Shown here: piece after piece, positions 4,817-30,018 of the stretch
Layout of the letters: the number at the start of each line of letters is the position of its first letter
Position numbering within the stretch: the stretch's first letter is position 1
NCBI GenBank assembly: GCA_030167145.1
Contig: CP126532.1
Coordinates: 3,000,001 to 3,032,000, forward strand
Source of the DNA: Ktedonobacterales bacterium
GTDB lineage: Bacteria; Chloroflexota; Ktedonobacteria; Ktedonobacterales; JADMIN01
Direction: 5' to 3'
Length of the DNA: 32,000 bases
Position numbers and translations under genes: made by a program
Notes under the pieces: model-generated
Database searches by the model: none
What the model was told of the DNA's origin: nothing
The model's input: the letters and a program-made list of their open reading frames with translations, nothing else

Positions 4817-4897
4817 GGTCGTGATTGCTCGCAGTGTGACTGAAATTGAAGTGTGGCAAGCGCGAGGTTCGGTGATGGATCCGAATTATGGAGGTGG

Positions 4898-16971: not shown

Positions 16972-18160
16972 CCGCCATGATCCCCGCTTTGCGCAGATTG
17001 ACGCTGCCGCCTTTGCGAGCAAGAACCTCTATAATGCGGCACTGTATCAGATGCGTCAGCACTATATCAAGGACCATGCGGTCATTACGTACAGCGACTT
17101 GGATAAGCTGATGCAGCCCAGCACGGAATATCGGGCATTGCCCGCTAAGGTCGCGCAATGGATACTCAAGCAAGTGACGCTCGCTTGGAAAAGCTATCTT
17201 GCCGCGTGTCGTGAATGGCAAGTGCATCCCAGCAAGTTCCTGGGCCATCCCAAACTCCCAAAATATCTGGACAAGCAGGGGCGCAATCTGCTAACCTATA
17301 CCGATCAGGCGATTAGCCGGGTGAAGCTCCGTCAGGGGGTCGTGGACTTTTCGGGCCTTACCATCGCAGTCAAGACGCGGCACGATCTGCCTGCTCAAGT
17401 GCGCATCGTGCCGCATGCTACCCACTACACGGTCGAGGTGGTCTACGAACGCGCACCCGTTCCTGCTGATGTCGATCCCACAGTGATTGCTGGGATTGAT
17501 CTGGGTGTCAACAATTTGGCGACGATAACAGCAAACCAGCCCGGCTTTGTGCCGCTTCTGGTTAACGGTCGCCCGCTCAAAGCATTGAACCAGTGGTACA
17601 ACAAACGACGCGCCGATCTGCAAGCGAAGCTCCCCAAAGACCAGTTCACCTCACGACAGTTGGAGATCGTAACTGACAAGCGCAAACGACAGATCGATCA
17701 CTATCTGCATGTTGCCAGTCGGCAGATCATCGCTGTGCTGGTGCGGCACCGCATTGGCACGCTGGTCATCGGCAAGAATGACGGCTGGAAGCAGCAGGTG
17801 AACCTGGGCAAACGCACGAATCAGACCTTTGTTTTCCTGCCACATGCACGGTTCATTGACATGCTGACCTACAAGGCACAGTTAGTCGGCATCACAGTTA
17901 TCCCTACCGAAGAGAGCTACACCAGCAAATGTAGCTTTTTGGATAACGAGTCGATAGAGCATCATGATCAGTATGTGGGCAGGCGGGTCAAGCGCGGGCT
18001 ATTCGTCTCGGCAACAGGGCGCAAGGTGAATGCCGATGTCAACGGCGCCTACAACATGATTGCCAAAGTGGTCCCAAATGCGGTGTTCCGCAATGGGAGA
18101 GCGGGTGTGGTAGTTCACCCGGTAGGGCTTGCCCTGCGTAACCGAGAACATGTGGCATAA
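16943..18160 (+). CDS. tnpB: TnpB (IS605 OrfB-type RuvC-like, RNA-guided nuclease family)
   Basis: Track ORF 16928..18160; ATG 16943 (MQLVEQHRI) is probable. RuvC-I is IAGIDLGVNNLA, RuvC-III is NADVNGAYNMIA, and the central region reads YTSKCSFLD. Overlaps the tnpA 3' end. Confidence 0.9.
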   Translation: MQLVEQHRIDRHDPRFAQIDAAAFASKNLYNAALYQMRQHYIKDHAVITYSDLDKLMQPSTEYRALPAKVAQWILKQVTLAWKSYLAACREWQVHPSKFLGHPKLPKYLDKQGRNLLTYTDQAISRVKLRQGVVDFSGLTIAVKTRHDLPAQVRIVPHATHYTVEVVYERAPVPADVDPTVIAGIDLGVNNLATITANQPGFVPLLVNGRPLKALNQWYNKRRADLQAKLPKDQFTSRQLEIVTDKRKRQIDHYLHVASRQIIAVLVRHRIGTLVIGKNDGWKQQVNLGKRTNQTFVFLPHARFIDMLTYKAQLVGITVIPTEESYTSKCSFLDNESIEHHDQYVGRRVKRGLFVSATGRKVNADVNGAYNMIAKVVPNAVFRNGRAGVVVHPVGLALRNREHVA

Positions 18161-18236: not shown

Positions 18237-19997
18237 ATGCCCCGCCGCCGATTCGCCATGTGGCTCTGGTCGTTGCTGTCATTGCTCGCATTGGCGCTGG
18301 TCGCGCCGCTGAGCGCAGCGCCCACGGTCCGCGCCGCGCCATCACAGCGGAGCCAGAGCGCGCCGCCCGACCTGCCAGCGGTAGACCCCAGCTACATCTA
18401 TGACCAGCTCTTCCACATGGCCACCTCGTTCCAGCGGCGCGAGTCAGGCTACGACAACAACCTCCCGGTGAACGTCAACGGCCACGACGAATTCGCCGCC
18501 TACTGGACGCAAGAGATCACCAGCGATCTCGCGGGCTTCGGCGCGACGGCGCGGCGCGATAGCTTCCCGATTCAGGGCTGGCGCGGTCGCCCCGCCACGG
18601 TCCCCGCCCTTAATGTCGAGGTCACGGTGCCCGGCCTCATCCACCCTGAGCAGGTCGTCGTCATCGGCTGCCACTATGATGGCGAAGCCTCCTCCACGCA
18701 ATCGGCCAACGACGACGCCAGCGGCTGCGCCATTGAACTGGGCGTGGCGAAGGCGATGGCGGCATACTGGCGTGCGCACCACGTCTATCCGGCGCGCACA
18801 CTGCGCTTCGTGCTCTTCGACGCCGAGGAGCAAGGGCTGTACGGCTCATTCCACTACCTCAACGACACCATCAACGGCGACACCGCCAATGTGGTGGCGA
18901 TGTTCAACGAAGAGCAGAACGGCATTGCCTATCCCTTGCGCTTCCTGGGCAAGTTGAGCAATCCGCTGCTGCCCTTCTACGTAGACCTCGCGCCGCTGAC
19001 CAGCAGCCAGCTCTACCCCAATCAGGATACGCTCGCGCCCGCGCAAAAAGCGGCGATCACCGGATTCCGCGCGCTCTCGCAGCAGTCCTATGCGGCGGTC
19101 TTCGCGCAGTTTCAGGCGCTGGGCTATGCCACGCTGGCCTATACCGACACGGCGGGCAAGGCCGTCACGCAGCCAGTCTTCGCCCCCGACGCGCTGAACA
19201 ACGTGCAACCCGAAGACGACACCCTCGGCAGCAGCGATCAGGTGCCATTCACGCTGGCCGGGCTGCCCGCCGTCACCTACGTTGGCAACTCCACCTACTA
19301 CGACCAGGATAGCCCCCCGCCGTGGTCCTATCCCTACGACCAGCCAACCGATACCATCCAGTTGATGAACACCTTCGCCAGCGGCAGTTCGGCCAAGGCC
19401 CCCGCGCTAGAGCTTGCGCTGGCGCTGCCGGGCATGCTCACCGCGTGGATGCTCAATCAGCCCGCCATCCTCGGCGCCGCGCCCGCCGATGGCAAGCCGC
19501 TGGCGGCGATCAGCGATGTCGGCCAGCTCCAGCCGGGGCAGCCCGTCGCGCTGGATGCCAACGCTTCGTTCGATCCAGCCAGCGCGGGCGCGCTGGCCTA
19601 CGCCTGGGACTTCGGCGACGGCGCGACGGCCAGCGGCGTATCCGTGACGCACACCTACGCCAGTGCGGGCACGTACACGCTCACGCTCACAGCCCGCGGC
19701 CCATCAGGCACGCGCGCGGTACGCAAAACCCTCACCGTCACCGCGCAGCCGCCAGTCTACGCCAACCCCTACGCGCAATACGCATCCAATGGCCGCCCGC
19801 CCGCGAATCCCCAAGTGACACTGCCACAGCCCAACGACACACCAGTCCCCTCATCCCCCGTCCCACACGTGACACCCGGCCCCCCTGTGTCATCTTCGGG
19901 CGTGCCGCTCTGGCTCTGGCTGGTGGGCGCGCTGGTCGTCATCGCCGCACTGTCGGCGCTGGGCCTGGCGCTGAGCGGGCGGCGCAAGCAATCATGA
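18237..19997 (+). CDS. Secreted, C-terminally anchored M28-family metallo-aminopeptidase with a PKD domain
   Basis: ATG 18237 after GGAAGGA, with a signal peptide. M28 zinc-ligand motifs are VVVIGCHYDG, NDDASGCA and FVLFDAEEQGLYGS. The PKD motif is YAWDFGDGATASGVSVTHTYASAGTYTLTLTA. The C-terminal TM helix is followed by SGRRKQS. Confidence 0.85.
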   Translation: MPRRRFAMWLWSLLSLLALALVAPLSAAPTVRAAPSQRSQSAPPDLPAVDPSYIYDQLFHMATSFQRRESGYDNNLPVNVNGHDEFAAYWTQEITSDLAGFGATARRDSFPIQGWRGRPATVPALNVEVTVPGLIHPEQVVVIGCHYDGEASSTQSANDDASGCAIELGVAKAMAAYWRAHHVYPARTLRFVLFDAEEQGLYGSFHYLNDTINGDTANVVAMFNEEQNGIAYPLRFLGKLSNPLLPFYVDLAPLTSSQLYPNQDTLAPAQKAAITGFRALSQQSYAAVFAQFQALGYATLAYTDTAGKAVTQPVFAPDALNNVQPEDDTLGSSDQVPFTLAGLPAVTYVGNSTYYDQDSPPPWSYPYDQPTDTIQLMNTFASGSSAKAPALELALALPGMLTAWMLNQPAILGAAPADGKPLAAISDVGQLQPGQPVALDANASFDPASAGALAYAWDFGDGATASGVSVTHTYASAGTYTLTLTARGPSGTRAVRKTLTVTAQPPVYANPYAQYASNGRPPANPQVTLPQPNDTPVPSSPVPHVTPGPPVSSSGVPLWLWLVGALVVIAALSALGLALSGRRKQS

Positions 19998-20373
19998 CCA
20001 CTGCATCGCACCTGCGATGACATATAAACCCCACTAAATACCACCACCAAGGAATATTGAGTGGCGCTGGTATGACGCTTGCGGGAGCCTACCCGTGCAG
20101 CGCATGGTGGGCGGCTACCACCGGCCTGAAAGCCTGGTCTCTGGCTGATCTTCAGGGGAACCGGCTGGCCTTGAGTGGGCTGATTCCACTCATGCGCGCT
20201 GCGGCCACACCGCGCGTGGCTGCTCTTCTGCGCGGAGTCCACGGCACCGGGGCAGGCGACGGCTTGCCCCATCTTCTAGCCCCATCTCCTTTCTTTGCCA
20301 TGTTCACCTTCCACACCTCTTATCACTCCCTTAATCCCTGTTTCCTATTTCATCCCCGCTCACGACTTCTTCC

Positions 20374-20382
20374 TGATATAAT
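20374..20382 (+). promoter_or_regulatory. Extended -10 promoter upstream of the sigma-factor gene
   Basis: TGaTATAAT at 20374-20382. It would give a ~210-nt leader before ATG 20600. Confidence 0.45.
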
Positions 20383-20599
20383 GGGCCGGTGGTCTCGGAC
20401 GATGTCATACATACCGCCTTCCACTTCTGGCGCATCGGATGCCCGCTCTGCCACACGCTCCACCGGCAAACCCGCACGCTTCCCGCCTTCCGCATTTGCC
20501 CCGCGCAAACGGAAAGGAGCAGCAGAAGCGCTTCGTAATTCCCGGTGAGAGCGTCCAGACGCGCACGAAGTTGGAGCAGCAATAGGGGAGACGATCCGG

Positions 20600-21469
20600 A
20601 TGGACGAGTCTGAGTCGAAGAAGGCAGGAGCGCAAACCAGGGGACGGCGCACCCGTCCCACAGATACGGCGGTGGATACCATGCCACAGGTCACGCGCAG
20701 CGCGGCCACCCTTGCCGCGCACACCGATGAGGCGCTGCCCGACCCGCGCGAGCCAGCATCGCTGGCGCGGCTACGGCAACGCACCAGCACCGGCGGCTAC
20801 ACCATCCCCGAAGCCGATCTCGTGCGCGCCATTCGCGGCTGGGGCCAGCGCGGCGAACACGCCGTGGTCCGCCAGCTCTGCGAGCTGCTCATCGAACGCT
20901 GCATGCCAGAGTTCCAGCGGCGCTCATGGGGGCTGCGTCACCGCCCCGACCTGATGGAAGACGCGATCATGGGCATGATCGAGCAGGTCTTGCGCGAGGC
21001 GCAAGACCCGACCGAAACCTTCATGACGCTCAACTTCATCCACTATCTGCGCTGCTGCGCCGCCGATAATTTCAACCGCGTCCTGCGGCAAGAGGGGCTG
21101 AGCTACCGCCGCGACGACCAGGGCCGCCCCGCGGGCAAGCCCCAGCACGTCCCGCAGGCCCTCGTTGACCGGATTGACGCGGGCGCAGAGAATAGGGATG
21201 ATGAGACAGCGCAGCCAGCGGCCATCGCCGACCCGCATGACCAACTGGATGAGCGCATGGCGGCGGTGGAGGCGCAGCGCATTTTGCTGTATCTCCCCGA
21301 TCCGCTCGACCGGCAGATTGTAATTTTGCGGGCGCTAGAGCACATGCGCTGGGACGACATCGCCAGGGCATGCGGCAAGACCGAACGCACCATGCGCCTG
21401 CGCTACGACAAAGCATTAGTGCGATTACGTGAGAGCATCGAGGCCGAGACCGCGATGGTGGCGCGCTAG
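20600..21469 (+). CDS. ECF-like sigma-70 family RNA polymerase sigma factor with an N-terminal extension
   Basis: Region-2-like segment (DLMEDAIMGMIEQVL...FMTLNFIHYLRCCAADNFNRVLRQ) and region-4 HTH (LPDPLDRQIVILRALEHMRWDDIARACGKTERTMRLRYDKALVRLRE). An ~75-aa basic/Pro-rich N-terminal extension precedes them. Confidence 0.7.
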   Translation: MDESESKKAGAQTRGRRTRPTDTAVDTMPQVTRSAATLAAHTDEALPDPREPASLARLRQRTSTGGYTIPEADLVRAIRGWGQRGEHAVVRQLCELLIERCMPEFQRRSWGLRHRPDLMEDAIMGMIEQVLREAQDPTETFMTLNFIHYLRCCAADNFNRVLRQEGLSYRRDDQGRPAGKPQHVPQALVDRIDAGAENRDDETAQPAAIADPHDQLDERMAAVEAQRILLYLPDPLDRQIVILRALEHMRWDDIARACGKTERTMRLRYDKALVRLRESIEAETAMVAR

Positions 21470-21485
21470 AAGCGGGAGAGAGCAC

Positions 21486-22184
21486 ATGACACGACAGAGC
21501 AAGACCCGACAGCAAGCTCCTCGCGCCACTAGCCGCACAGGCACTGGCGGAGGCAAGGACATGACAACAGTAATGGACGCCAAAATGGCGCTAGTGAAGG
21601 CGCGCGACCTCGGCCAGCCGGACGCGCTGGGCACAGTTCTCGGCACGTATCCCGCCTCCTACACGCCCGACCTGATCGAATTCGACGCCGGGCTGGTGGC
21701 GACCAGCGGCTACGCCAACGAAACGCCCACCCCAGAGACCGAGAGCATCGCTGCGCGGGCGCTCTCCAGGGCCTTCGCGCATATTTTCGTCGAACCGGCG
21801 ATAGCCACCGGTCCGCTCGCCGCCGCGCAAGGCGCCCTCGCCACACTGCGCGGCCTGCGCCGGGCACGCGGCCTGACACCGCGCGTGTTGGGCCAGAAGA
21901 TCGGCCTCGGCGTAGACATCATCAGCAGCCTGGAGGCCGGCATGATCCGCGTCGTCTCCATCCCCGACCGGCTGATCCGCGCGCTCAGCGACGCGCTCGG
22001 CACAACCGTCGAGCAGATGCAGAACGCCCTCGCCACCCAGCCGATGGTCGAGCCTGCCCTGCGGCGCGACCAAACGCGCGGCGGCCAGCACACCTCCGAG
22101 CAATCCGCGATGGATTTCGCCGACGCCGTGCGCGTCAGCCCAAACATGACCGACGCCGAAAAATCCACCTGGCTCGGCGAATAG
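21486..22184 (+). CDS. XRE-family HTH protein
   Basis: Track ORF 21429..22184. ATG 21486 follows GGGAGAG, 17 nt after the sigma-gene stop. HTH_3-like segment LRGLRRARGLTPRVLGQKIGLGVDIISSLEAGMI. The N-terminal ~130 aa have no recognised motif. Confidence 0.65.
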   Translation: MTRQSKTRQQAPRATSRTGTGGGKDMTTVMDAKMALVKARDLGQPDALGTVLGTYPASYTPDLIEFDAGLVATSGYANETPTPETESIAARALSRAFAHIFVEPAIATGPLAAAQGALATLRGLRRARGLTPRVLGQKIGLGVDIISSLEAGMIRVVSIPDRLIRALSDALGTTVEQMQNALATQPMVEPALRRDQTRGGQHTSEQSAMDFADAVRVSPNMTDAEKSTWLGE

Positions 22185-22236
22185 CACCGCCCCAGCCCCT
22201 CTCATTGCAAGCGGGCAGCGTCTACTGCTGAATATC

Positions 22237-22260
22237 CCCCAGCCAGTTCGCTGGCTGGGG
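22237..22260. terminator. Bidirectional terminator-like hairpin between convergent genes
   Basis: ccccagccag-ttcg-ctggctgggg: a perfect 10-bp GC-rich stem with a UUCG tetraloop. No clear U-tract on either side. Confidence 0.45.
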
Positions 22261-22264
22261 CGCA

Positions 22265-22328
22265 GTTGTAGCGCCGCCGTCCCGGCGGCTCGCGCCCACC
22301 ACATCCGTACCGCCGCCGTCCCGGCGCC
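22265..22328 (+). repeat. Two REP-like family B elements (GTAG/GTAC + GCCGCCG-TCC-CGGCGGC hairpin)
   Basis: gttgtagcgccgccgtcccggcggctc (22265-22291) is identical to 29927-29953. A second, degenerate copy gtaccgccgccgtcccggcg lies at 22307-22326. Confidence 0.8.
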
Positions 22329-22338
22329 CCCCCGCGCG

Positions 22339-25300
22339 CTACTCCTCCTCGCCCGCCGCCTCCTGCCCCATGCGATACTTGATATCGTAGTTGATGATGA
22401 AGTCGAGCTCCTCCTCCGTGAAGCCGTAGTGCCGCGCCAGCACGCGGTCTATCTCGTCTATGATGGGCTTGGAGAGACGCGGCTGGAATGTTTGGATCGT
22501 TAGCACTCCAAACTTCCCATAATTATTGGTGAGTGACTTGGAATTAGAAGCGAAGTCCTTCATTACCTGAATGCTTAGACCTTGCAGTGCTTTCGCAAGG
22601 CTTGGTCTAATCTCGTCAATAGTACATGGGAATGCCTCGATCTCGCGACGGTTTACATTACGAACATCAGAGTATGTGCAAAAGAACCAGAAGAAGAGGC
22701 TAGAGTTTAGGATTGCAAGGACAAGATCCCGATGCAACACAGAACCTAAATGGACTTCCTTGAGTTCTGAGGGTTGAAGCTTTTCGCCACGTGAGTCTGT
22801 AATCCTTGGAATGAAGTCAAGAAACTGAACGAAATACCTCAGTTTCCTTGTATAATAAACTACCGATTCCGAGTGAGGCACAAAGAAGGATCTCAGCGGC
22901 TTCTGCTTGCTGAGTCGTTCGAGAATACTTGTCTCTCTGGCAGTTGCCACTTTAGGAATAGCACTATTTACCGAGGTTCTATCATCGCTTAGCGATGCGA
23001 AAGTGATAGTCGCGAAGAGGATATCTCGCTCTTCACTGAACCACCTTCTATAGTTAGATACTTGTAGTCCTTCCCCATGTCGCACATTCCGCATCAACCA
23101 AATTGTTAGGCGCTTTTCAACACCAGTGAAAAGTTTGGATGGGCGCTCTGCGAAGCTGAGATTCCACGAAAGCCGCCCAGGATGAATCAAGCATGCTCTC
23201 AGATCATCGAAGCCATCTGTGCTAACTACTGAGACAGGTACGATCATGCCCATTGCCCCGTCATGGCTCAACAGGCCAGTAGACCGCTCCATAACAAATG
23301 AGTAAAGGTCACCGCACTTTTCTGTGAGGAACCCTTTTATCGAATACTGGTTCTGGATGTTCTTATACTCCACATACGGCGGATTCCCAATAATCACGTC
23401 GAAGCCGCCGCGCGAGTGGACGATGCCATAGAACTCGACGAACCAGTGGAAGGGCTGGTGGCTGGCGCGCCACGGCTCGAAGGCGAAGAGGTCGTTGGGG
23501 TCCACGCCGTATTCGCGCGCCAGGTAGCCGTTCAACACGGCGTTGAGGTCGTCCAGGCTGCGGCGCAGGTCGGCTTTGTCCTTGTGGGTGATCTCGCCAC
23601 CATAGGTCGTCTGCTGGTCGCGGAACTGTTTAAACTTGCTGGCGGCAATATCGGCTTTCTCGTTGATGCGCCGGAGAATCTCCTCGTCTTCTGGATAGGG
23701 CATGCGCAATTGGCCGTTGGGACCGCCGTACATCATGGCGTCGCGGACGGCATCCAGGGTGGCGAAGCCGACCAGCGTGTTGCCAGCGCGGATGTTGAAG
23801 TCAATATCGGGCAGCGGCTCCAGGTTCGCCTTGTCGTCCACCTGGGCGACGAGCTTGAGGAAGAGGCGCAGCTTGGCGATCTCGCAGGCTTCGGCCATGA
23901 TGTCTACGCCGTAGAGGTTGTTGACGATGATCGTCTTCAGGATGGCGTAGCGCGGGTTGGGGTGCTGCTTGACCGAAGCGAGAATGGCGCGGAGGTCGGG
24001 CGCGGAGCGGCTATCGCCGAGGCGGTCATAGTCGGCGACAAAGGCGCGCATGCGGTCCAGGGCGGCGGTGTAGAGCGGTTCGAGGATGGTGAGCGCCGCG
24101 AAGAGGAACGCGCCGGAGCCGCAGGTGGGGTCGAGGATGGTGATGGAGTTGAGCGCCTGCCAGAAGGCGCGCAGCAGTTCCACGCCCTCGCAGCGTTCGA
24201 TCACGTCGCGGGCGAAGCGTTCGATGTCGAGGTTGTAGGTAATCAGGTCGTTGATGCTGGTGATCTCGCCAGCGGCGAGCTTCGCGCGCAACTCGTGGCA
24301 GCGGGTGCGGCGGGCGACATACTCGCGCCAGGTTTCGGTGGGCAGCGCGTAGCTTGCGGCGGCGGGGCGGTTCCAGCCGCTGCGCTGGGCCACGTCGCCG
24401 ATGCCCGCCGCGATGTCTTCAGGGAGATCGAGGTCTACGCCCCGGCGCACGGCTTCGTAGATGTAGGCGTCGGGGTCGTCGCGCAGCAATCGCCAGACTT
24501 CGCCGTCGGGCGCGAAGGCGACCTTACATTTCTCGCGGGCGGAGTCGAAGAGGAAGGGCAGGATCGTGTTGCGGCCAATGTAGCCGGTGATATCCTCTTT
24601 GGTGTAGTACGCGCCCATCTGCTTCTGGTTGATGTATTTCTCGAAGATATAGCCCAGCACGTCGGGGTTGATCTCTTTGTCGGAATGTTTCTCGTCGTGA
24701 TGCTCGGTATCCAGATGCCAGTGGTATTCGTCGAAGAAGGCGAAGACGCGGGCGAAGGCGTCGTCGGGGATAGCGATGGCGGGGTTGGCAGCTTCGATCT
24801 GGTGGACCTCGAAAAGGCCGCCGTTGACGTAGGGGATGTCGCCGATCAGCGCGGCGAGGTCGTCGGCGCGTTCGGCGCGCGGCTGGCCGAGGCCCTCGTG
24901 GAAGAAGCGACGCAAGAATTCACGATAGAAGCGGTCGAACTGGCCGTCGCCGTGGCGCTCGCGGACCAGCTTCAGTCGGTTGGGCAGGTAGTTGGTGTCG
25001 CCGTCGAGAAAGTCCTTCTTCTGGATGAAGTAGGTGAACATCAGGCGGTTGAGCATCAGCGAGGCGTACCAGGCGCGCTGATCGTCGCTGGCGATGCCTT
25101 CGATGCGTTTGAGGAAGGCGTCATGTTCGGTCTTGAAGCGGTCGTAGAAGCGTTTGGTAGTGCGCTCCACATCGAAGGAGCCGGAGACTTTGCGAGCGAC
25201 ATCGAGAATGGTGAGGGTCTCTTCGTCGGCAATGTCTATGGCGAAGTCGCGCAACCGCTGCACGAGCGCCTCGCCAGTCTGCCCCGCGAAATAGGGCTGC

Positions 25301-25656
25301 TCGCGGACCGCGATGGGCTTACCGGGCTGGCGCTTCACCCACTGCCAGATCTGGCGCGTACGCTCACGGTCTACGAAGATGATGAGATGCTCGCGGGCGA
25401 GCTTAGTCACCTGGCTCTCGATCTGCTTGCGGGTGCTGTAATCCGGGATGCCGCCGCGCGGGTCGGGGTCGCAGAGCAGCACGGAGAAGCCGCGCTTCTG
25501 GGCGACGTGGCGCAGGATATAGGTCTCGCCGCCAGCGACGACGCTCAGCGTGTTGGCGGGAGGGTTATCCCAGCCTAGCTCTTCGATGAAGAGCGCGGTG
25601 AAAGCGAAATCTTTGAGGCAGGCACGCATGCGACTGGTAGCAACAGCAACAGCCAT
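22339..25656 (-). CDS. Large gamma-class N6-adenine DNA methyltransferase (Eco57I/TaqI-like) with an N-terminal unknown domain and a C-terminal TRD-like region
   Basis: Track ORF 22339..25827. I place the start at ATG 25656 (MAVAVATSRM..., GAAGGAG RBS 10 nt upstream), because the longer form overlaps the upstream gene by 120 nt. Motif I is ILDPTCGSGAFLF, motif IV is VIIGNPPYVEY, and the conserved tail reads RHYGFTEEELDFIINYDIKYRMG. Confidence 0.9.
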   Translation of the reverse strand: MAVAVATSRMRACLKDFAFTALFIEELGWDNPPANTLSVVAGGETYILRHVAQKRGFSVLLCDPDPRGGIPDYSTRKQIESQVTKLAREHLIIFVDRERTRQIWQWVKRQPGKPIAVREQPYFAGQTGEALVQRLRDFAIDIADEETLTILDVARKVSGSFDVERTTKRFYDRFKTEHDAFLKRIEGIASDDQRAWYASLMLNRLMFTYFIQKKDFLDGDTNYLPNRLKLVRERHGDGQFDRFYREFLRRFFHEGLGQPRAERADDLAALIGDIPYVNGGLFEVHQIEAANPAIAIPDDAFARVFAFFDEYHWHLDTEHHDEKHSDKEINPDVLGYIFEKYINQKQMGAYYTKEDITGYIGRNTILPFLFDSAREKCKVAFAPDGEVWRLLRDDPDAYIYEAVRRGVDLDLPEDIAAGIGDVAQRSGWNRPAAASYALPTETWREYVARRTRCHELRAKLAAGEITSINDLITYNLDIERFARDVIERCEGVELLRAFWQALNSITILDPTCGSGAFLFAALTILEPLYTAALDRMRAFVADYDRLGDSRSAPDLRAILASVKQHPNPRYAILKTIIVNNLYGVDIMAEACEIAKLRLFLKLVAQVDDKANLEPLPDIDFNIRAGNTLVGFATLDAVRDAMMYGGPNGQLRMPYPEDEEILRRINEKADIAASKFKQFRDQQTTYGGEITHKDKADLRRSLDDLNAVLNGYLAREYGVDPNDLFAFEPWRASHQPFHWFVEFYGIVHSRGGFDVIIGNPPYVEYKNIQNQYSIKGFLTEKCGDLYSFVMERSTGLLSHDGAMGMIVPVSVVSTDGFDDLRACLIHPGRLSWNLSFAERPSKLFTGVEKRLTIWLMRNVRHGEGLQVSNYRRWFSEERDILFATITFASLSDDRTSVNSAIPKVATARETSILERLSKQKPLRSFFVPHSESVVYYTRKLRYFVQFLDFIPRITDSRGEKLQPSELKEVHLGSVLHRDLVLAILNSSLFFWFFCTYSDVRNVNRREIEAFPCTIDEIRPSLAKALQGLSIQVMKDFASNSKSLTNNYGKFGVLTIQTFQPRLSKPIIDEIDRVLARHYGFTEEELDFIINYDIKYRMGQEAAGEEE

Positions 25657-25674
25657 GTAAATTGTACTCCTTCT

Positions 25675-25699
25675 GTAGCGCCGCCATCTCGGCGGCTCG
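25675..25699 (+). repeat. REP-like family B variant in the 49-bp helicase-MTase spacer
   Basis: gtagcgccgccatctcggcggctcg: GTAG plus a GCCGCC/GGCGGC stem. Confidence 0.7.
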
Positions 25700-25705
25700 A
25701 TGCTG

Positions 25706-28700
25706 TCACTGTGAGAAGAGGCCAAGCGAGCAGATAAGCTGCGGCTCGCGGCTTGTGGCATCGTCTTGCGTATGACAGAGGCGATCTTCGTTGCGCAGGG
25801 TGATGACCAGTTCGGCAAGTATCTCATCGCTGATACCGGCCTTGAGCTGGCGGTTGAGCGTATCTATGGCGGACTGGCGCAGCGTAAAGCGATAGATGTC
25901 CTCAATAGCGCGGGGCAGTTCTTCCGATTCCCAGAGCGTGCCCTTGATGCGCTCGTTGAAAGATTTGAGGCGCTCATAGGTGCGAAAACGCGCGCCGGAG
26001 GGGCGGCCAAGCTGGCCTCCGATGTGTTGCTCTTCAGCGGCAAGGTGGCGCATGCCAGCAAGCACCAGATCGTGGTGGGCCGGGTCGCGCGGCACCGCCG
26101 GGGTGTCGGGCGCGCACTCGGCGGCGCGGAGGATGGTAAGCTGCGATTGCGTGACGGCATTGCCCTGGCGGTTCATCCAGGCGAGGGCGTCATTGCCCTC
26201 GGCGGTACGAACGTAGACGAGCACACCTTCGGGCGCGCTGGGCGTGGGCGTGTGGGCGCGGCTGGAATAAACGACGGGCGGCAGGTCGGGGATGGTTTTC
26301 TGGAGCGATGGGTCGCGGTCAATGGCGTTCTTCCAGATCTGATAGGCCTGGGAGGTGAGGTCTATTTCGGTATCGGCGTCGCCGTCGAGGATACCAGCCT
26401 TCTCGTTGTAGATATCGAGGATCGGGCGGTCGTCGCGGTCATCTTCGAAGAACGATTCATCGGTGCCGACCACCTCAGCGTTCTCGCGCAGGCGCTGGCG
26501 CACGCGCGAGCGGAGGCGGATGATACGCTCCACGCCATCGGCGGGCAGGAACGAGAGGCAGCGAATCTCATGGGCCTGCTGGCCGATGCGGTCCACACGC
26601 CCGGCGCGCTGGATGAGGCGGATGATGGCCCAGGGCAGGTCGTAGTTGACGATGATCGCACAGTCTTGCAGGTTCTGGCCTTCGGAGAGGACATCGGTGG
26701 CGATCAGCACGCGCAATTCATCGTGTGGGGCGATGGCCTTGCCATTGCTGAGCGGGCTGAAGCGCCAGGCGAGGGCGGTGGGGTCGGCGGAGTCGCCAGT
26801 GACGCCCGCGAGCGCGGATATACCGCGCGCCTGGAGTTGCGTGGTGAGATAGCGGACGGTATCGGCGAACTGGGTGAAGATGAGCACTTTGTCGTTGGGA
26901 TAGGTTTGGGTGAGGAGCGTAGCGAGCGCGTTGAGCTTGGCATCGCGCGCAGCATCCCACGGGCCACAGGTGGCGAGCACGCTGAGCAGGGCATGAGCAT
27001 CGCGCAGCAGGTGCTCGCGCAGGTCGGCGACGAAGAGGCCGGGGCGCAGCCACTTGAAGCGCTTGCGATACTGTCTGGCATAGCCGCCATAGATCTCAGC
27101 GGCACGGCGGCGATAGTCGTCTTCGGTGCGCAGCGCGCTGGTGACGCTCGCGGACTGCTCTTCTATCTCGTCATCTTCAAGGCCAGGGAGGACGGCGTCG
27201 GCATCTTCGTCGTAGGCGCGGGTATCGAGCAATTGCGGCTCCTGCGTGCCAAGCGGGAGATCATGGCCGGTCTCGATGGCGTGCAGGTAGACGAAGTTGC
27301 GCAGGATGTGGCGCTCGATGGATTCGATAAAGGCGGGGCCACCGCTTTCGAGCCGCTTGAAGAGGTTGGTACGGCAGAAGCCCATCAGACGCTTGCCCGC
27401 ACGCGAGAGACCGGCAAGCTGTTTGGCTTCCGCCTGGGTGGGGGGCTTATCCGGCGTAGGGGCGACGTAGTTGCCGAGACCGTAGCGCGGGAGATAGAGC
27501 GCGTTCACGGCGTCTACCACGCGCCCGGAATAGAGGCGGGCGTAGGGGTCGGCGGGGTCGCCGTCGTTGATGGTAAACCTGATGGTCTGCGGGACACGCG
27601 CCGGGAAGTATGAGCGCGTGCCATCGGGGAAGGTGAGGAAGGTGCGCCCGTTGGTAGGGTCGGTCTGGGCGTAGTTTTGCTGGATGAAGCCGCGCGTGCG
27701 CCGGACCATGTAGAGGCGCATCAGGTCGCGCCAGTCATCTGCGTATTCGCTCTGCTCGAAGGCGGCGAGCGAGCGCACGGGGCACTGGTGGCGGCGAACG
27801 AACTCGGTCTCGCCAAGCTCGGCAAGTCGCTTTTCGGGGCGGATGCCAAGGTCTTGCTCTGGCGGGACGAAGAGGCGCAACTGCGCGGAGAGATCGAGAT
27901 AGGTCTTGTTATAGGGCGTGGCGGTGAGCAGAATGCAGCGACTATCGTTCTGCTCGATGTACTCGCGGATGGCTTTGTAGCGGCTGCCCTCGCGGTTGCG
28001 CAGGTTGTGGCTCTCGTCAATGAGCACGAGACGGTAGCGGCGCAGGTCTGGGAGTTGCTGCATCACCTGGCTGACGGAGAGGACTTTGGCGATGAGGCGA
28101 TAGCGGGCGACGTAATCTTCCCACATCCTGACGAGGTTCTTGGGGCAGATGATGAGGGTTTCCCAACTGTAGTCGTCCTGAAAGACGCGGGCGAGCGCGG
28201 TGGCCATGAGCGTCTTGCCGAGACCGACGACATCGCCGATAAGCACGCCCGCGCGCTTGTTGACGTGATGCGCCGCGATGCGCACGGCGGCCTGCTGGAA
28301 CTCGAAAAGCTGATTACCAAAGTCGCGGGGAACGTGGAACTGAGAGAGGCCCGCTCGCGCTTCCTGGGAGAGATGGTAGGCGATCTTGAGATAGATGCAA
28401 TAGGGTGGGAGCAGGTCTTCACGCGCCCAACTGGTATCAATGATGTCCGCCAGCTCATCCGAGATGTCGAGGCACCAGCGATCCTGCCAGCGGTCGTTGA
28501 ACCACTGCTCCAGCTTACGCGCGGCGTCGTGTTCCAAAACGTCAACATTCAACTCACCCTGCTGTTTCAGCCCGGCGAAGGTGAGATTGCTGCTGCCAAG
28601 GAAGCCAGTGATGGGGTTGTTGAGATCATCGCGGAAGAGGAGATAGAGCTTGGCATGCAGCGCGTGCCGCAGATGCAGCTTGACGATGACTTTTCTGGCG

Positions 28701-29068
28701 CGAAGTTGGGCGCTGAGGCGGCGCAATGCAGCCTCGTCGGCGTCGGTAGGGATACCATGTGTGAGTTGTTCGCGGAAATCGGCGGCAGCGCGCTTCTTGA
28801 GTTGCAGCACCTGCGCCTGGTCAACCGCAGCGCCGCCGCTCAGGCTGAGGGCTGCGCGTAGCTCATCCTGCGGTAACTGCTGCATACCAACAAGCACACG
28901 ACAGCATGCGCCCTCACCACCTGCCCAGCGTTCGACGATGGGGTCTATGGTCCGCCAGCCGCGGAGGTTGAAATAGCCGACGCAAAAGTCCGCGCGCTGA
29001 GCGGTTTCGAGTGTACCGCGCAATGTGGAAAGCAGGTCCAACTCGATGTTATCGAAGATCCTGGGCAT
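25706..29068 (-). CDS. PLD(HKD)-family nuclease domain fused to an SNF2/SF2 helicase-translocase
   Basis: 1120 aa. There is a single N-terminal HKD motif (HALHAKLYLLF ... GSSNLTFAGL). The SF2/SNF2 motifs are GDVVGLGKTLMA (I), LIDESHNLRN (II), LLTATPYNK (III), SEGQNLQD (V) and QRAGRVDRIGQ (VI). A ~250-aa C-terminal extension has no recognised motif. Confidence 0.9.
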   Translation of the reverse strand: MPRIFDNIELDLLSTLRGTLETAQRADFCVGYFNLRGWRTIDPIVERWAGGEGACCRVLVGMQQLPQDELRAALSLSGGAAVDQAQVLQLKKRAAADFREQLTHGIPTDADEAALRRLSAQLRARKVIVKLHLRHALHAKLYLLFRDDLNNPITGFLGSSNLTFAGLKQQGELNVDVLEHDAARKLEQWFNDRWQDRWCLDISDELADIIDTSWAREDLLPPYCIYLKIAYHLSQEARAGLSQFHVPRDFGNQLFEFQQAAVRIAAHHVNKRAGVLIGDVVGLGKTLMATALARVFQDDYSWETLIICPKNLVRMWEDYVARYRLIAKVLSVSQVMQQLPDLRRYRLVLIDESHNLRNREGSRYKAIREYIEQNDSRCILLTATPYNKTYLDLSAQLRLFVPPEQDLGIRPEKRLAELGETEFVRRHQCPVRSLAAFEQSEYADDWRDLMRLYMVRRTRGFIQQNYAQTDPTNGRTFLTFPDGTRSYFPARVPQTIRFTINDGDPADPYARLYSGRVVDAVNALYLPRYGLGNYVAPTPDKPPTQAEAKQLAGLSRAGKRLMGFCRTNLFKRLESGGPAFIESIERHILRNFVYLHAIETGHDLPLGTQEPQLLDTRAYDEDADAVLPGLEDDEIEEQSASVTSALRTEDDYRRRAAEIYGGYARQYRKRFKWLRPGLFVADLREHLLRDAHALLSVLATCGPWDAARDAKLNALATLLTQTYPNDKVLIFTQFADTVRYLTTQLQARGISALAGVTGDSADPTALAWRFSPLSNGKAIAPHDELRVLIATDVLSEGQNLQDCAIIVNYDLPWAIIRLIQRAGRVDRIGQQAHEIRCLSFLPADGVERIIRLRSRVRQRLRENAEVVGTDESFFEDDRDDRPILDIYNEKAGILDGDADTEIDLTSQAYQIWKNAIDRDPSLQKTIPDLPPVVYSSRAHTPTPSAPEGVLVYVRTAEGNDALAWMNRQGNAVTQSQLTILRAAECAPDTPAVPRDPAHHDLVLAGMRHLAAEEQHIGGQLGRPSGARFRTYERLKSFNERIKGTLWESEELPRAIEDIYRFTLRQSAIDTLNRQLKAGISDEILAELVITLRNEDRLCHTQDDATSREPQLICSLGLFSQ

Positions 29069-29118
29069 CGCAAGCGGCTTTCTTCAGTGTAGCAAGTGAA
29101 GCGGGAATCGCGCTGTTC

Positions 29119-29147
29119 AGTATACACGCTGACCTCTTGGCGCGCAA
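29119..29147 (-). promoter_or_regulatory. Candidate promoter for the PLD-SNF2 gene
   Basis: On the minus strand: TTGCGC (complement of 29142-29147), 17-nt spacer, TATACT (complement of 29119-29124). It lies ~50 nt upstream of ATG 29068. Confidence 0.45.
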
Positions 29148-29165
29148 TGGCTGAGCGCGCCGCGA

Positions 29166-29191
29166 GTTGTACCGCCGCCGTCCCAGCGGCT
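29166..29191 (+). repeat. REP-like family B variant (GTAC) between the DprA-like and PLD-SNF2 genes
   Basis: gttgtaccgccgccgtcccagcggct: two mismatches relative to the 27-mer at 22265 and 29927. Confidence 0.7.
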
Positions 29192-29206
29192 GGCGAGACG
29201 CCTGCG

Positions 29207-29845
29207 CTACACGACGAGTGGCCAGAGGGTTGCGACGCCTGCGGGGCGAACGGGGCGAGCGCCGAGAGCAAGAAGGCTGGCGTTGTGGTCGTCTTCAAGG
29301 GTGAAGAGCGGTTTGCCCCAGGTGACGATCTCGCTGGTGAGCGCCTCAATTTTGCCGCCGGGGGAAGCATAGGCGGCAAAAACAGCAGTGGCGAGCGCGG
29401 CGGCGAAGCGGTTGCGTGTGAGGGCGGTCGCGGCGGTGAGGCGTGGCGCATTGTCAAATGGCGAGAGGATAAGCAATCGTCCCTGCTCGATGGGTGCGCG
29501 CCAGGCAGCGGGGAGGCGCATGCGAGCGATGTCACGTGCGGGGCAGAGGATAACAGGCTGGGAGCCGCGCAGCAGCAGGCGCAGGCATTCGCGTTCCATC
29601 GGCGAGTGGAAGCCGCCAATCACGGGGATGCCAGCGTCGCGCAGAGCAATGGCGAGATCGTAGGCAGCGAGGATGATGGAACCGGGACAGCGAACAGAAC
29701 AGAGAAAGGCAAGCGAAGGCCGGAGCAGTATGGCAGGGTCGCCAATAGCAATGAGCGTGGGTAGCGTAGTGAAGGCTGACCGGACGCCCGCCGGATACAA
29801 CGGGGAATCCGGCGTGATGCGCACTTGCTGTCGCGGTGCGGTCAT
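29207..29845 (-). CDS. Stand-alone DprA/Smf-like (SLOG/Rossmann) domain protein
   Basis: 212 aa; ATG 29845 with GAGAGGAGG upstream. The layout matches the DprA Rossmann core: LAFLCSVRCPGSIILAAYDLAIALRDAGIPVIGGFHSPMERECLRLLLRG..PVILCPARDI...GRLLILSPF...RNRFAAALATAVFAAYASPGGKIEAL. It lacks the N-terminal SAM and C-terminal DML1/winged-helix domains of competence DprA. Confidence 0.65.
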   Translation of the reverse strand: MTAPRQQVRITPDSPLYPAGVRSAFTTLPTLIAIGDPAILLRPSLAFLCSVRCPGSIILAAYDLAIALRDAGIPVIGGFHSPMERECLRLLLRGSQPVILCPARDIARMRLPAAWRAPIEQGRLLILSPFDNAPRLTAATALTRNRFAAALATAVFAAYASPGGKIEALTSEIVTWGKPLFTLEDDHNASLLALGARPVRPAGVATLWPLVV

Positions 29846-29871
29846 AGTGCGAGCGGCCTCCTCTCAGCGGG

Positions 29872-29880
29872 ATTGTATCA
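29872..29880 (-). promoter_or_regulatory. Extended -10 promoter for the DprA-like gene
   Basis: The minus strand reads TGaTACAAT (complement of 29880-29872), ~27 nt upstream of ATG 29845 with the RBS in between. Confidence 0.45.
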
Positions 29881-29926
29881 TGCGGGCAGGTGCAGACGGT
29901 GGCCGGAGTCCCGCCTGCGGTACAAG

Positions 29927-29953
29927 GTTGTAGCGCCGCCGTCCCGGCGGCTC
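29927..29953 (+). repeat. REP-like family B element, identical to 22265-22291
   Basis: 27/27 identity, same orientation. It sits between the two divergent promoters. Confidence 0.8.
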
Positions 29954-29989
29954 CTGGGGCGGACCGTCCCGTCTGCCCGCCCGCTCACC

Positions 29990-30018
29990 TTGACCGTATC
30001 GAACGCATGTCCTATACT
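29990..30018 (+). promoter_or_regulatory. Near-consensus sigma70 promoter firing into a gene-less repeat region
   Basis: TTGACC (29990-29995), exactly 17-nt spacer, TATACT (30013-30018). No convincing ORF or RBS occurs for the next ~700 nt. Confidence 0.55.

What the first reader, a model, noticed from the sequence alone, without database searches (positions are those of the whole stretch)
22495..23400. Sharp low-GC cassette inside the methyltransferase gene, covering NPPY through the TRD
Seen: within one continuous ORF, base composition drops from roughly 62-65% GC (23401 onward and 22339-22490) to roughly 35-53% per 60-nt line (about 45% overall by eye) between ~22495 and ~23400. The upstream junction falls at the codons for FDVIIGNPPY. 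The downstream junction falls just before the conserved tail ...IDEIDRVLARHYGFTEEELDFIINYDIKY.
Established: in Type IIG/ISP/TaqI-like gamma MTases the region after motif IV carries the target recognition domain. TRD shuffling is a known route to new specificities.
Inference: a TRD cassette from a lower-GC donor replaced the resident one by recombination at conserved flanks, recently enough not to have ameliorated. That would imply active specificity turnover, typical of a system under phage selection.
Basis: partly seen in the sequence, partly recalled or inferred. Interest (0 to 1): 0.65.

Follow-up and report, generated by a model that had tools for sequence, protein, structure and literature searches.

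The report
Swapped low-GC specificity cassette in methyltransferase
A 0.9-kb piece of a DNA-methyltransferase gene, the part expected to choose the DNA target site, has foreign low-GC codon usage and different relatives from the rest of the gene, so it was swapped in by recombination, which turns out to be routine across this widespread two-gene defence family.

Summary
In the gene at 22339-25656 (-), GC3 falls from 0.86 to 0.48 across codons 812-1113 (window 23394-22489), then returns to 0.90 in the last 49 codons. Four-fold-site GC is 0.91, 0.41 and 0.94. This is the lowest-GC 906-nt stretch in the 32-kb window.

The block is a mosaic. The closest backbones (74% aa identity) share only 28-31% identity in the block. 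The closest blocks (64%) sit on 53-56% backbones, in 44-52% GC hosts. Both switches map onto the codons for DVIIGNPPY and SKPIIDEID.

Two metagenome contigs are identical over 7.6 kb up to NPPY yet carry unrelated blocks. Seven further backbone-matched pairs show the same unrelated blocks, five of them checked at the DNA level.

The block covers the catalytic fold after motif IV plus a TaqI/PglX-like recognition domain. The partner gene, a PLD-SNF2 helicase-nuclease, is present in 94 of 105 related loci.

One caveat. The block has lower GC3 than its backbone in 57 of 58 family genes, as a sharp-edged step averaging -0.19. Low GC alone therefore does not date the event or identify a single low-GC donor.

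This is TRD-cassette exchange, a known kind of event, well documented here in an uncharacterised family.

The parts
22339..25656 (-). Methyltransferase gene (1105 aa plus stop). It is a gamma-class N6-adenine MTase of the Eco57I / PglX-like type. The maximal ORF runs to 25827, but its first 57 codons have atypical GC3 and overlap the 3' end of the upstream gene.
   Evidence: Pfam Eco57I scores 89.8 bits against a cut-off of 25.3, plus MmeI_Mtase. PADLOC PDLC03628 matches full-length at 1227 bits. The database protein P0001 is 1105 aa.
23395..25656 (-). Constant backbone. It comprises an N-terminal alpha/beta domain, a helical region, and the first half of the MTase fold (motif I, ILDPTCGSGAFLF) up to the strand that ends in motif IV. 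Its codon usage is host-like.
   Evidence: GC3 0.857, four-fold-site GC 0.906. It is 74% aa identical to P0002/P0003.
23374..23400 (-). Upstream switch zone, the codons for D-V-I-I-G-N-P-P-Y (motif IV). The sequence follows the high-GC backbone relatives up to GAC GTG. From ATT ATT GGG AAT CCG CCG TAT it follows the low-GC cassette relatives.
   Evidence: Per-codon listing. Three-way nucleotide alignment of the window with L001 and with L003/L016/L017.
22489..23394 (-). Low-GC cassette of 302 codons. It contains the rest of the catalytic Rossmann fold (beta5 to beta7) plus a mixed alpha/beta target-recognition domain of about 190 aa.
   Evidence: GC 0.457, GC3 0.48, four-fold-site GC 0.414. 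Identity to the backbone relatives drops to 0.1-0.4 exactly here. The structure model has block-mean pLDDT of about 77-96, apart from one low loop near residue 845. Foldseek matches PglX, MmeI and M.TaqI.
22462..22491 (-). Downstream switch zone, the codons T-F-Q-P-R-L-S-K-P-I. The cassette-type motif TFQPRL gives way to backbone-like TCC AAG CCC ATC ATA GAC...
22342..22488 (-). Conserved C-terminal tail (...KPIIDEIDRVLARHYGFTEEELDFIINYDIKYRMG...), predicted as two long helices. Its codon usage is host-like again. It serves as the downstream homology anchor.
   Evidence: GC3 0.90, four-fold-site GC 0.944. It is about 80-90% aa identical in all 119 homologues. Helices span 1059-1096. Between L001 and L002 it is a 100% identical island between unrelated sequences.
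25706..29068 (-). Partner gene: a 1120-aa protein with an N-terminal PLD/HKD nuclease domain followed by an SNF2-family helicase. It is the presumed restriction motor-nuclease. It ends 49 nt upstream of the MTase start.
   Evidence: Pfam PLDc_2, SNF2-rel_dom and Helicase_C. The best PADLOC hit is 'C3a139 HKD+Snf2'. A homologue lies on the same strand in 94 of 105 related loci.

Best explanation
The gene encodes the methyltransferase and specificity subunit of a conserved two-gene, restriction-modification-like system: a PLD-SNF2 helicase-nuclease followed by an Eco57I/PglX-like N6-adenine MTase. The host is an uncultured, roughly 63% GC Chloroflexota, probably Ktedonobacterales-like.

The segment from the motif IV codons (IIGNPPY) to the start of the conserved C-terminal tail is a self-contained exchange unit. 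It holds the second half of the catalytic fold plus the target-recognition domain. In this genome that unit has a different ancestry from the rest of the gene. It was brought in by recombination from an allele that had been evolving in low- to mid-GC DNA. The backbone, tail and partner gene are fully adapted to the host's composition.

The two flanking blocks are the only parts that are conserved between alleles. They act as homology anchors, and later recombination with resident alleles probably keeps them host-like right up to the edge of the cassette.

By analogy with Type I HsdS, Type III Mod, MmeI-type and BREX PglX enzymes, swapping the unit should change the DNA motif that is methylated. 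If the MTase also targets the nuclease partner, it should change the motif that is restricted as well.

Shown here: the compositional step, the mosaic ancestry, the switch points, the family-wide exchange and the fold. Inferred: the change of specificity, the direction and date of the transfer, and the role of the partner gene.
For: 1. GC3 and four-fold-site GC step down at 23394 and back up at about 22489. The backbone, tail and partner gene match housekeeping genes.

2. Identity to the closest backbones, P0002/P0003, is 0.8-0.9 up to the NPPY block. It falls to 0.1-0.4 across the cassette and returns to 0.9 in the tail. The closest cassettes (P0004, P0010-13, 63-64%) have only 53-56% identical backbones.

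3. The window's cassette clusters at 50% identity or more with L003, L016 and L017. Those hosts are 44-52% GC and their cassette GC3 is 0.39-0.46. L003 is compositionally uniform (GC3 0.46 throughout).

4. The nucleotide switch points lie inside the DVIIGNPPY and SKPIIDEID codons.

5. Natural swaps exist. L001 and L002 have 1 mismatch in 7.6 kb, then 24 SNPs in the 630 nt before NPPY, then unrelated cassettes (22% aa identity). They are 100% identical again across the tail. Seven more pairs have 85-97% identical backbones and cassettes only 23-34% identical (L004/L005/L007/L022, L059/L077, L043/L056). DNA identity profiles were run on five of them. In four it collapses within about 30-60 nt of NPPY; in L043/L056 the collapse is less sharp. 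In all five it recovers at the tail.

6. The family-average delta-GC3 profile is a step with edges at the same two places, and it does not depend on amino-acid conservation.

7. The AlphaFold model (pLDDT 84) matches BrxX/PglX, DrdV, CamA, LlaBIII, MmeI and M.TaqI. The cassette covers beta5-7 plus the TRD.

8. An identical sequence occurs in an independent Logan assembly.
Against: No donor or near-identical cassette was found. The best cassette relative is 64% aa identical with saturated four-fold sites (0.71 different), so direction, source and date are unknown.

The cassette is AT-shifted in 57 of 58 family genes, including low-GC hosts (mean difference 0.11, n = 10). The fitted line is C3 = 0.64*N3 + 0.04, which never crosses the diagonal. 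Some standing force besides recent import may therefore keep the module AT-rich.

Homology between a 65% GC and a 45% GC allele at the NPPY codons is only about 8-11 nt. A single-step homologous exchange is mechanistically awkward, so a multi-step history has to be assumed.

No methylation data exist, so the specificity change is by analogy only.
Confidence: 0.8

Rival explanations
1. The low GC is a standing, locally maintained property of the module and not a mark of recent foreign origin. The cassette may have been resident in this lineage for a long time. Its synonymous sites would stay AT-shifted for one of three reasons: the hypervariable block cannot take part in homologous recombination with other alleles, so it gets no GC-biased gene conversion; linked diversifying selection weakens selection on codon usage; or some direct selection favours AT-richness there. 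This rival is compatible with cassette exchange. It disputes only 'recent' and 'low-GC donor'.
For: Cassette GC3 is below backbone GC3 in 57 of 58 genes (mean -0.19, Wilcoxon p = 4e-11), and also in low-GC hosts (mean -0.11, n = 10). The regression never crosses the diagonal. Five further genes on viral contigs show the same. L005 and L007 share one cassette type, have diverged by about 0.23-0.32 at four-fold sites, and both still show a gap of about 0.25-0.29.
Against: The deficit is a flat step with sharp edges and is independent of amino-acid conservation. Variable stretches of the backbone (conservation 0.26-0.35) dip only 0.04-0.07. Well-conserved parts of the cassette (conservation 0.44-0.48) dip 0.18-0.19. 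The window's gap (0.37) is the third largest of 58, about twice the family mean. Its cassette GC3 matches that of its cassette relatives, not what the regression predicts for its host. About 0.15 substitutions per site per lineage in L005/L007 is too little to expect much amelioration anyway.
Confidence: 0.25
2. Metagenome assembly chimera: the low-GC block comes from another organism's homologue and was mis-joined at conserved motifs.
For: The window comes from a metagenome contig (JGI 3300045419, 5.07 Mb). Conserved motifs flank the block.
Against: It would take two mis-joins that restore frame and host sequence on both sides. The nucleotide identity shared across the junctions is only about 8-11 nt, far below assembly k-mers. 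An independent Logan assembly of run SRR22113990 gives a 100% identical 4.4-kb sequence across both junctions. The same architecture is seen in dozens of unrelated assemblies, including MAGs and a complete chromosome.
Confidence: 0.02
3. Programmed phase variation: a shufflon or inverting system that exchanges the expressed cassette with silent copies nearby.
For: Specificity genes of Type I systems often do this. A serine recombinase gene lies at 16366-16971.
Against: There are no silent cassette copies, no copies of the NPPY or tail blocks, and no meaningful inverted repeats in 19000-30000. The best inverted-repeat arms are 18-31 nt at 72-94% identity and are scattered. The recombinase belongs to an IS607-like element with TnpB, 4 kb away. 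The cassette's composition shows a different history, not a local duplicate.
Confidence: 0.02
4. Amino-acid composition artefact: the recognition domain simply uses more AT-rich codons because of its residues (K, N, I, Y, F).
For: GC at codon positions 1+2 is slightly lower in cassettes (family mean difference 0.038). GARP residues fall from 29.8% to 21.2% in the window's cassette.
Against: The drop is largest at synonymous sites. Four-fold-site GC goes from 0.906 to 0.414, and 17 of 18 amino acids individually switch towards A/T-ending codons. FYMINK content barely changes (25.0% vs 27.2%).
Confidence: 0.01

Closest known systems
Allelic exchange of the variable DNA-recognition region in Type III mod genes (Haemophilus and Neisseria; Bayliss et al. 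2006, PMC1557822)
   Same: Conserved MTase flanks surround a hypervariable region proposed to be the TRD. Alleles are mosaic, with recombination break-points next to the variable region. Exchange occurs within and between species. Composition is used as a sign of transfer.
   Different: That is a beta-class Mod with a central TRD. Here it is a gamma-class enzyme in which the exchanged unit runs from motif IV through the rest of the catalytic fold and the C-terminal TRD. There is no repeat-tract phase variation. The hosts span several phyla. The family-wide synonymous AT shift of the module was not looked for in that paper beyond a term search.
TRD 'domain movement' and swapping in Type I hsdS and other H. 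pylori MTases (Furuta et al. 2011, PMC3077401; 2014, PMC3983042)
   Same: Specificity changes by moving whole recognition modules through recombination at conserved flanking sequences (papers listed; mechanism from their abstracts and my own knowledge).
   Different: Those cases involve a separate S subunit with two TRDs, and movement within a gene or between loci of one species. Here a single TRD is fused to the MTase and exchange is between alleles of very different base composition.
BREX PglX/BrxX, MmeI-family Type IIL/IIG and Type ISP (LlaGI/LlaBIII) enzymes
   Same: These are the best structural matches over the whole chain: 9ewz, 8c45, 7lo5, 5hr4, 4xqk. All share an N-terminal domain, a helical spacer, a gamma-class NPPY MTase and a TaqI-like TRD. 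In these families the TRD sets a short asymmetric motif and can be re-engineered (PglX: PMC11341690, listed).
   Different: Sequence similarity is marginal: PDB phmmer E = 0.0025, and NCBIfam BREX-1 PglX scores 71 bits against a 500 cut-off. No BREX genes are nearby. The motor-nuclease is a separate PLD-SNF2 protein, not fused as in Type ISP and not absent as in MmeI.
BREX-related 'Type-2 BR' systems with an HKD-Swi2/Snf2 effector, and MANTIS/Gao_RL (PMC12839542; bioRxiv 10.64898/2026.09.23.753747)
   Same: An N6-adenine MTase is paired with an HKD/PLD-SNF2 helicase-nuclease as the presumed restriction effector.
   Different: Those systems need a DUF499/AAA+ ATPase, a DUF1156-type MTase with the TRD nested inside the core, and DUF3780 or MtsB. 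None of these is present here. This MTase is Eco57I/MmeI-type with a C-terminal TRD, and the locus is a two-gene unit.

Membership tests
Gamma-class N6-adenine DNA methyltransferase, Eco57I type (Pfam PF07669) | Pfam Eco57I domain above the gathering score | tested here: met
   89.8 bits against a cut-off of 25.3, residues 636-892 of the long ORF. MmeI_Mtase scores 36.2 against 27.
Gamma-class N6-adenine DNA methyltransferase, Eco57I type (Pfam PF07669) | SAM-binding motif I upstream of catalytic motif IV (NPPY), with the TRD after the catalytic domain | tested here: met
   ILDPTCGSGAFLF lies about 250 residues before GNPPY, and both are invariant in 59 homologues. The model matches M.TaqI, MmeI and PglX, with the TRD C-terminal.
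Stand-alone Type IIG / IIL restriction-modification enzyme (MmeI-like) | Full-length match to a profile built from annotated Type IIG enzymes | tested here: met
   PADLOC PDLC03628 'REase_MTase_IIG', 1227 bits, residues 68-1156 against 9-1097 of 1100. The name is an annotation, not a tested activity.
Stand-alone Type IIG / IIL restriction-modification enzyme (MmeI-like) | Active PD-(D/E)XK nuclease in the same polypeptide, acting without a partner | tested here: inconclusive
   No nuclease domain was found by Pfam or NCBIfam in the N-terminal 500 aa. A PLD-SNF2 partner gene is present in 94 of 105 loci, which argues against a stand-alone enzyme. Catalytic residues were not examined.
BREX (PglX) | PglX family score, and neighbouring brxA/B/C, pglZ and brxL genes | tested here: not met
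   NCBIfam BREX_1_MTaseX scores 71 bits against a 500 cut-off. The neighbours are a PLD-SNF2 gene, a DprA-like gene and HTH genes, with no PglZ or BrxC.
DISARM class 1 (DrmMI with DrmD, DrmA, DrmB, DrmC) | DrmD and DrmMI at family score, and DrmA/DrmB (DUF1998) in the locus | tested here: not met
   NCBIfam DrmD scores 131 bits against a 610 cut-off. The PADLOC DrmMI hit is partial at 83 bits. No DrmA- or DrmB-like genes are in the window.
Mosaic MTase alleles evolving by TRD-cassette exchange | Conserved flanks around a hypervariable module | tested here: met
   Across 1653 pairs, mean pairwise aa identity is 57% for the backbone and 30% for the cassette; in the 119-homologue set the tail is about 80% identical to the query. 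There are 36 cassette clusters at 50% identity among 58 genes.
Mosaic MTase alleles evolving by TRD-cassette exchange | Near-identical backbones carrying unrelated modules, with break-points at the module edges | tested here: met
   L001/L002 (backbone 99.7-100%, cassette 12-22%) and seven more pairs. In the pairs profiled, DNA identity collapses at NPPY and resumes at the tail. In the window itself.
Mosaic MTase alleles evolving by TRD-cassette exchange | Different modules give different methylated motifs | not testable with these tools
   Needs methylome data or biochemistry.
Phase-variable inverting specificity locus (shufflon) | Silent cassettes, inverted repeats and a dedicated recombinase next to the gene | tested here: not met
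   No such repeats or copies occur in 19000-30000. The only recombinase belongs to an IS607-like element.

The most novel reading that the evidence does not exclude
The recognition cassettes of this family may form a pool of gene segments shared across phyla and permanently out of compositional equilibrium. They would be exchanged faster than they can ameliorate, and/or be shielded from the GC-raising force that acts on the rest of the gene, for example GC-biased gene conversion, because they have no homologous partner to recombine with. The sharp, uniform step of about -0.19 in GC3 at the two homology anchors, seen in 57 of 58 genes from hosts of 33-68% GC, would then be a general, measurable signature of segments that can only move as a whole. 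That signature could be used to find exchange modules in other defence genes and to test what maintains GC content in bacteria.
Probability: 0.3. Interest if true: 0.7.

Novelty: new member of a known kind. Interest (0 to 1): 0.5.

Why it matters
It gives a clean case of specificity-module exchange, resolved to the nucleotide. The family is abundant (over 8000 homologues) and, as far as I could find, has not been studied experimentally. It is a PLD-SNF2 helicase-nuclease paired with a PglX-like methyltransferase.

The exchange unit is defined precisely, from motif IV to the C-terminal two-helix tail. That tells experimenters where to cut when building chimeras with new specificities.

The family-wide synonymous AT shift of the module, with edges at the homology anchors, warns against using GC dips as a clock for recent transfer. 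It is also a possible natural experiment on what maintains GC content in bacterial genes.

Tried and rejected
- A cassette-only protein search against 5.8 billion proteins found nothing closer than about 57-64% identity, so no donor could be named.
- The genome-contig scan did not find the window's genome or any close relative. It returned only 12 distant loci at 43-56% identity.
- The sequence search of the PDB gave only marginal PglX hits, so a structure prediction was needed.
- Repeats and inverted repeats were searched for silent cassettes or a shufflon. None were found.
- Assembly chimera was considered and rejected.
- Amino-acid composition was considered as the cause of the dip and rejected by the four-fold-site analysis.
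- BREX, DISARM, Type-2 BR and MANTIS memberships were considered and rejected on family scores and missing partner genes.
- Reverse mosaics, meaning the same cassette on very different backbones, were looked for. Only modest cases turned up (cassette 63-66% vs backbone 52-56%), and there were no near-identical cassettes on divergent backbones in this sample.
- Comparing synonymous divergence in L005/L007 to test amelioration was uninformative, because too little divergence has accumulated.
Full report
**1. The observation**

The ORF lies on the minus strand at 22339..25827. Its first 57 codons have atypical GC3 and overlap the end of the upstream gene. The protein on record (P0001, 1105 aa) starts at 25656.

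GC in 150-nt windows is 0.43-0.52 between about 22475 and 23400, and 0.58-0.74 on either side. A two-breakpoint likelihood scan of third-position GC places the low segment at codons 812-1113, window 23394..22489. GC3 is 0.48 inside and 0.87 outside, with LLR 82 and Fisher p = 1.5e-37.

At four-fold degenerate sites the values are 0.906 (N part), 0.414 (block) and 0.944 (tail), p = 3e-30. Seventeen of 18 amino acids individually switch to A/T-ending codons. So this is a synonymous-site effect and not a residue-composition effect.

The block is the lowest-GC 906-nt segment in the 32-kb window (0.457). The next lowest is 0.53, at an IS607-like element. The backbone (GC3 0.857), the tail (0.898) and the partner gene (0.781) match housekeeping genes in the window, which range from 0.77 to 0.85.

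**2. What the gene and its neighbourhood are**

Pfam finds an Eco57I methylase domain (89.8 bits) and an MmeI_Mtase domain. PADLOC's REase_MTase_IIG model PDLC03628 matches end to end at 1227 bits.

The gene immediately upstream on the same strand (25706..29068) encodes a 1120-aa PLD/HKD nuclease fused to an SNF2 helicase. A homologue of that partner lies on the same strand in 94 of 105 related loci. At least nine of the eleven loci without one have little or no upstream sequence. The unit is therefore a conserved two-gene system.

It fails the family scores and lacks the partner genes for BREX, DISARM, the Type-2 BR systems and MANTIS.

An AlphaFold model built on 59 homologues has pLDDT 84 and pTM 0.79. 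Its best matches in the PDB are BrxX/PglX over the whole chain, then DrdV, CamA, LlaBIII, MmeI and M.TaqI. In the model the strand ending in GNPPY is residues 752-757. The block (755-1056) contains the remaining strands of the catalytic fold, up to about residue 872, followed by a mixed alpha/beta recognition domain. The tail (1057-1105) contains two long helices at 1059-1096.

The host is an uncultured bacterium, on a 5.07-Mb contig from a JGI metagenome. Its GcvPB is 81-86% identical to proteins of Ktedonobacterales MAGs.

**3. The block has a different ancestry from the rest of the gene**

Among the 119 best homologues, the backbone is closest to P0002/P0003 at 74% identity, and their blocks are only 28-31% identical to this one. 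The block is closest to P0004 and P0010-13 at 63-64%, and their backbones are 53-56% identical. The tail is about 80-90% identical in all of them.

In 30-residue windows, identity to P0002/P0003 is 0.87-0.93 just before the NPPY block, 0.50 in the window containing it, and 0.10-0.40 across the block. It returns to 0.9 in the tail. Identity to P0004/P0010 does the reverse.

At the nucleotide level the window follows L001 (57 of 60 nt) up to GGC TTC GAC GTG. It then reads ATT ATT GGG AAT CCG CCG TAT GTG GAG TAT AAG AAC, like L003 and L017. It switches back within TCC AAG CCC ATC ATA GAC.

The window's cassette type (50% identity or more) is otherwise found in L003, L016 and L017. Those hosts are 44-52% GC and their cassette GC3 is 0.39-0.46. 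L003 is compositionally uniform at GC3 0.46.

**4. Exchange of this unit is routine in the family**

P0002 and P0003 come from two metagenome samples and lie in the same genomic context. Their DNA has one mismatch in the first 7.6 kb, then 24 SNPs in the 630 nt before NPPY, then no similarity beyond the codon after NPPY. Identity returns to 100% from the IIDEIDRVLA codons to 20 nt past the stop codon. The SNP zone is the expected footprint of a recombination tract imported from a slightly diverged allele.

Seven further pairs have 85-97% identical backbones and cassettes only 23-34% identical. DNA identity profiles were run on five of them (L004 with L007, L005 and L022; L007/L022; L059/L077; L043/L056). 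In four, identity collapses within about 30-60 nt of NPPY. In L043/L056 the collapse is less sharp. In all five it recovers at the tail.

Fifty-eight genes hold 36 cassette clusters at 50% identity.

**5. A caveat that changes the reading**

The cassette has lower GC3 than its own backbone in 57 of 58 family genes for which DNA was available. The mean difference is 0.19 (Wilcoxon p = 4e-11), while tail and backbone do not differ. The fit is C3 = 0.64*N3 + 0.04. The shift persists in low-GC hosts (mean 0.11, n = 10). The window's gap of 0.37 is the third largest. Five more genes on IMG/VR contigs show the same.

Averaged over the family, delta-GC3 along the protein is a step. It is about 0 (+/-0.05, with a few blocks up to about +/-0.1) in the backbone, and -0.13 to -0.22 from the NPPY block to about residue 1060. 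It is -0.03 in the tail. The step does not depend on amino-acid conservation.

Low GC is therefore a standing feature of the module. It supports a separate history for the block, but it cannot date the event in this genome or prove a single low-GC donor.

Three candidate causes remain, and I could not separate them:

- turnover faster than amelioration, from an AT-richer mobile pool;
- absence of GC-biased gene conversion in a segment that has no homologous partner;
- linked diversifying selection that weakens selection on codon usage.

**6. Mechanism proposed**

Shown: the unit from motif IV to the tail is exchanged as a whole, and the two conserved blocks are where homology between alleles begins and ends.

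Inferred: the cassette entered this lineage from an allele resident in lower-GC DNA. Shared identity at the NPPY codons between high-GC and low-GC alleles is only about 8-11 nt. So the entry was either by short-homology recombination, or with longer foreign flanks that later recombination with resident alleles replaced up to the edge of homology. That second route would also explain the sharp edges seen family-wide.

Inferred by analogy with HsdS, Mod, MmeI and PglX: the swap changes the motif methylated and, through the MTase, the motif targeted by the PLD-SNF2 partner.

**7. Rivals**

- Assembly chimera is excluded by an identical independent assembly and by the family-wide pattern.
- A shufflon is excluded by the absence of silent copies and inverted repeats.
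- Amino-acid composition is excluded by the four-fold-site analysis.
- Long residence with locally maintained low GC remains possible, at about 0.25, for the 'recent' part of the claim only.

**8. Novelty**

TRD exchange at conserved flanks is well known for Type III mod (PMC1557822) and for Type I hsdS and other MTases (PMC3077401 and PMC3983042). This is a new, well-resolved member of that kind, in a two-gene family for which I found no experimental study. The family-wide synonymous AT step is an additional observation. I did not find it described, though my literature search was limited.

Noticed in passing
window 22268-22290, 22307-22329, 25675-25697, 29169-29191, 29930-29952 (all on the + strand): A 23-31-nt GC-rich repeat, GTAGCGCCGCCGTCCCGGCGGCT, occurs five times, against 0 expected by chance. 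It forms a 6-7-bp hairpin with a GGGAC loop on the coding strand. It is found only in the intergenic gaps of the minus-strand gene cluster: twice just after the MTase stop, once 19 nt before the MTase start, and once upstream of each of the helicase and DprA-like genes. It is absent from the other 24 kb of the window and from all related loci. It could be a host REP-like element or a shared regulatory or processing site.
   Followed up: partly
L001 9166-9306 vs L002 9358-9498: The conserved tail plus 20 nt past the stop codon is a 100% identical island between L001 and L002. The sequence differs completely on both sides: the cassette upstream and the downstream context. Either the locus edge is also variable, or two separate events occurred.
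   Followed up: partly
window 16366-18160: An IS607-like element: a serine recombinase (Resolvase domain, 16366-16971) overlapping a TnpB/OrfB_IS605 gene (16928-18160). Its GC is 0.55 and GC3 0.55-0.65, making it the second lowest-GC region of the window.
   Followed up: no
window 29207-29845 (-); L002 12717-13370: A DprA-like gene (Pfam DNA_processg_A below cut-off; PADLOC PsyrA, E = 5e-14) lies just upstream of the PLD-SNF2 gene. A DprA-like gene also lies near the system in L002. It may be a second defence or toxin-antitoxin module, or an accessory gene.
   Followed up: no
window 20600-22184 (+): Two regulator-like genes run convergent with the MTase: a sigma-70 region-4 protein (20600-21469) and an HTH_31/XRE protein (21429/21573-22184). 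Any role as a controller of the system was not examined.
   Followed up: no
window 25657-25827: The maximal ORF extends 57 codons upstream of the likely start. That stretch has GC3 of 0.5-0.7 and overlaps the end of the helicase gene and one copy of the hairpin repeat, so it is probably non-coding.
   Followed up: partly
L098-L107 (IMG/VR contigs): Ten contigs classified as viral carry family members. All five with an intact gene show the same cassette GC3 deficit. Whether these are prophage-borne copies, and so a possible mobile reservoir of cassettes, was not examined.
   Followed up: partly
L039 (Ga0209573_1001197): The most extreme case in the family. Backbone GC3 is 0.74 and cassette GC3 0.20, in a locus with 62% GC flanks.
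   Followed up: no
window 4853-6487 (+): A PQQ/beta-propeller gene has GC 0.57 and GC3 0.62. That is clearly below the neighbouring glycine-cleavage genes (GC3 0.77-0.82), so this may be another compositionally atypical gene.
   Followed up: no
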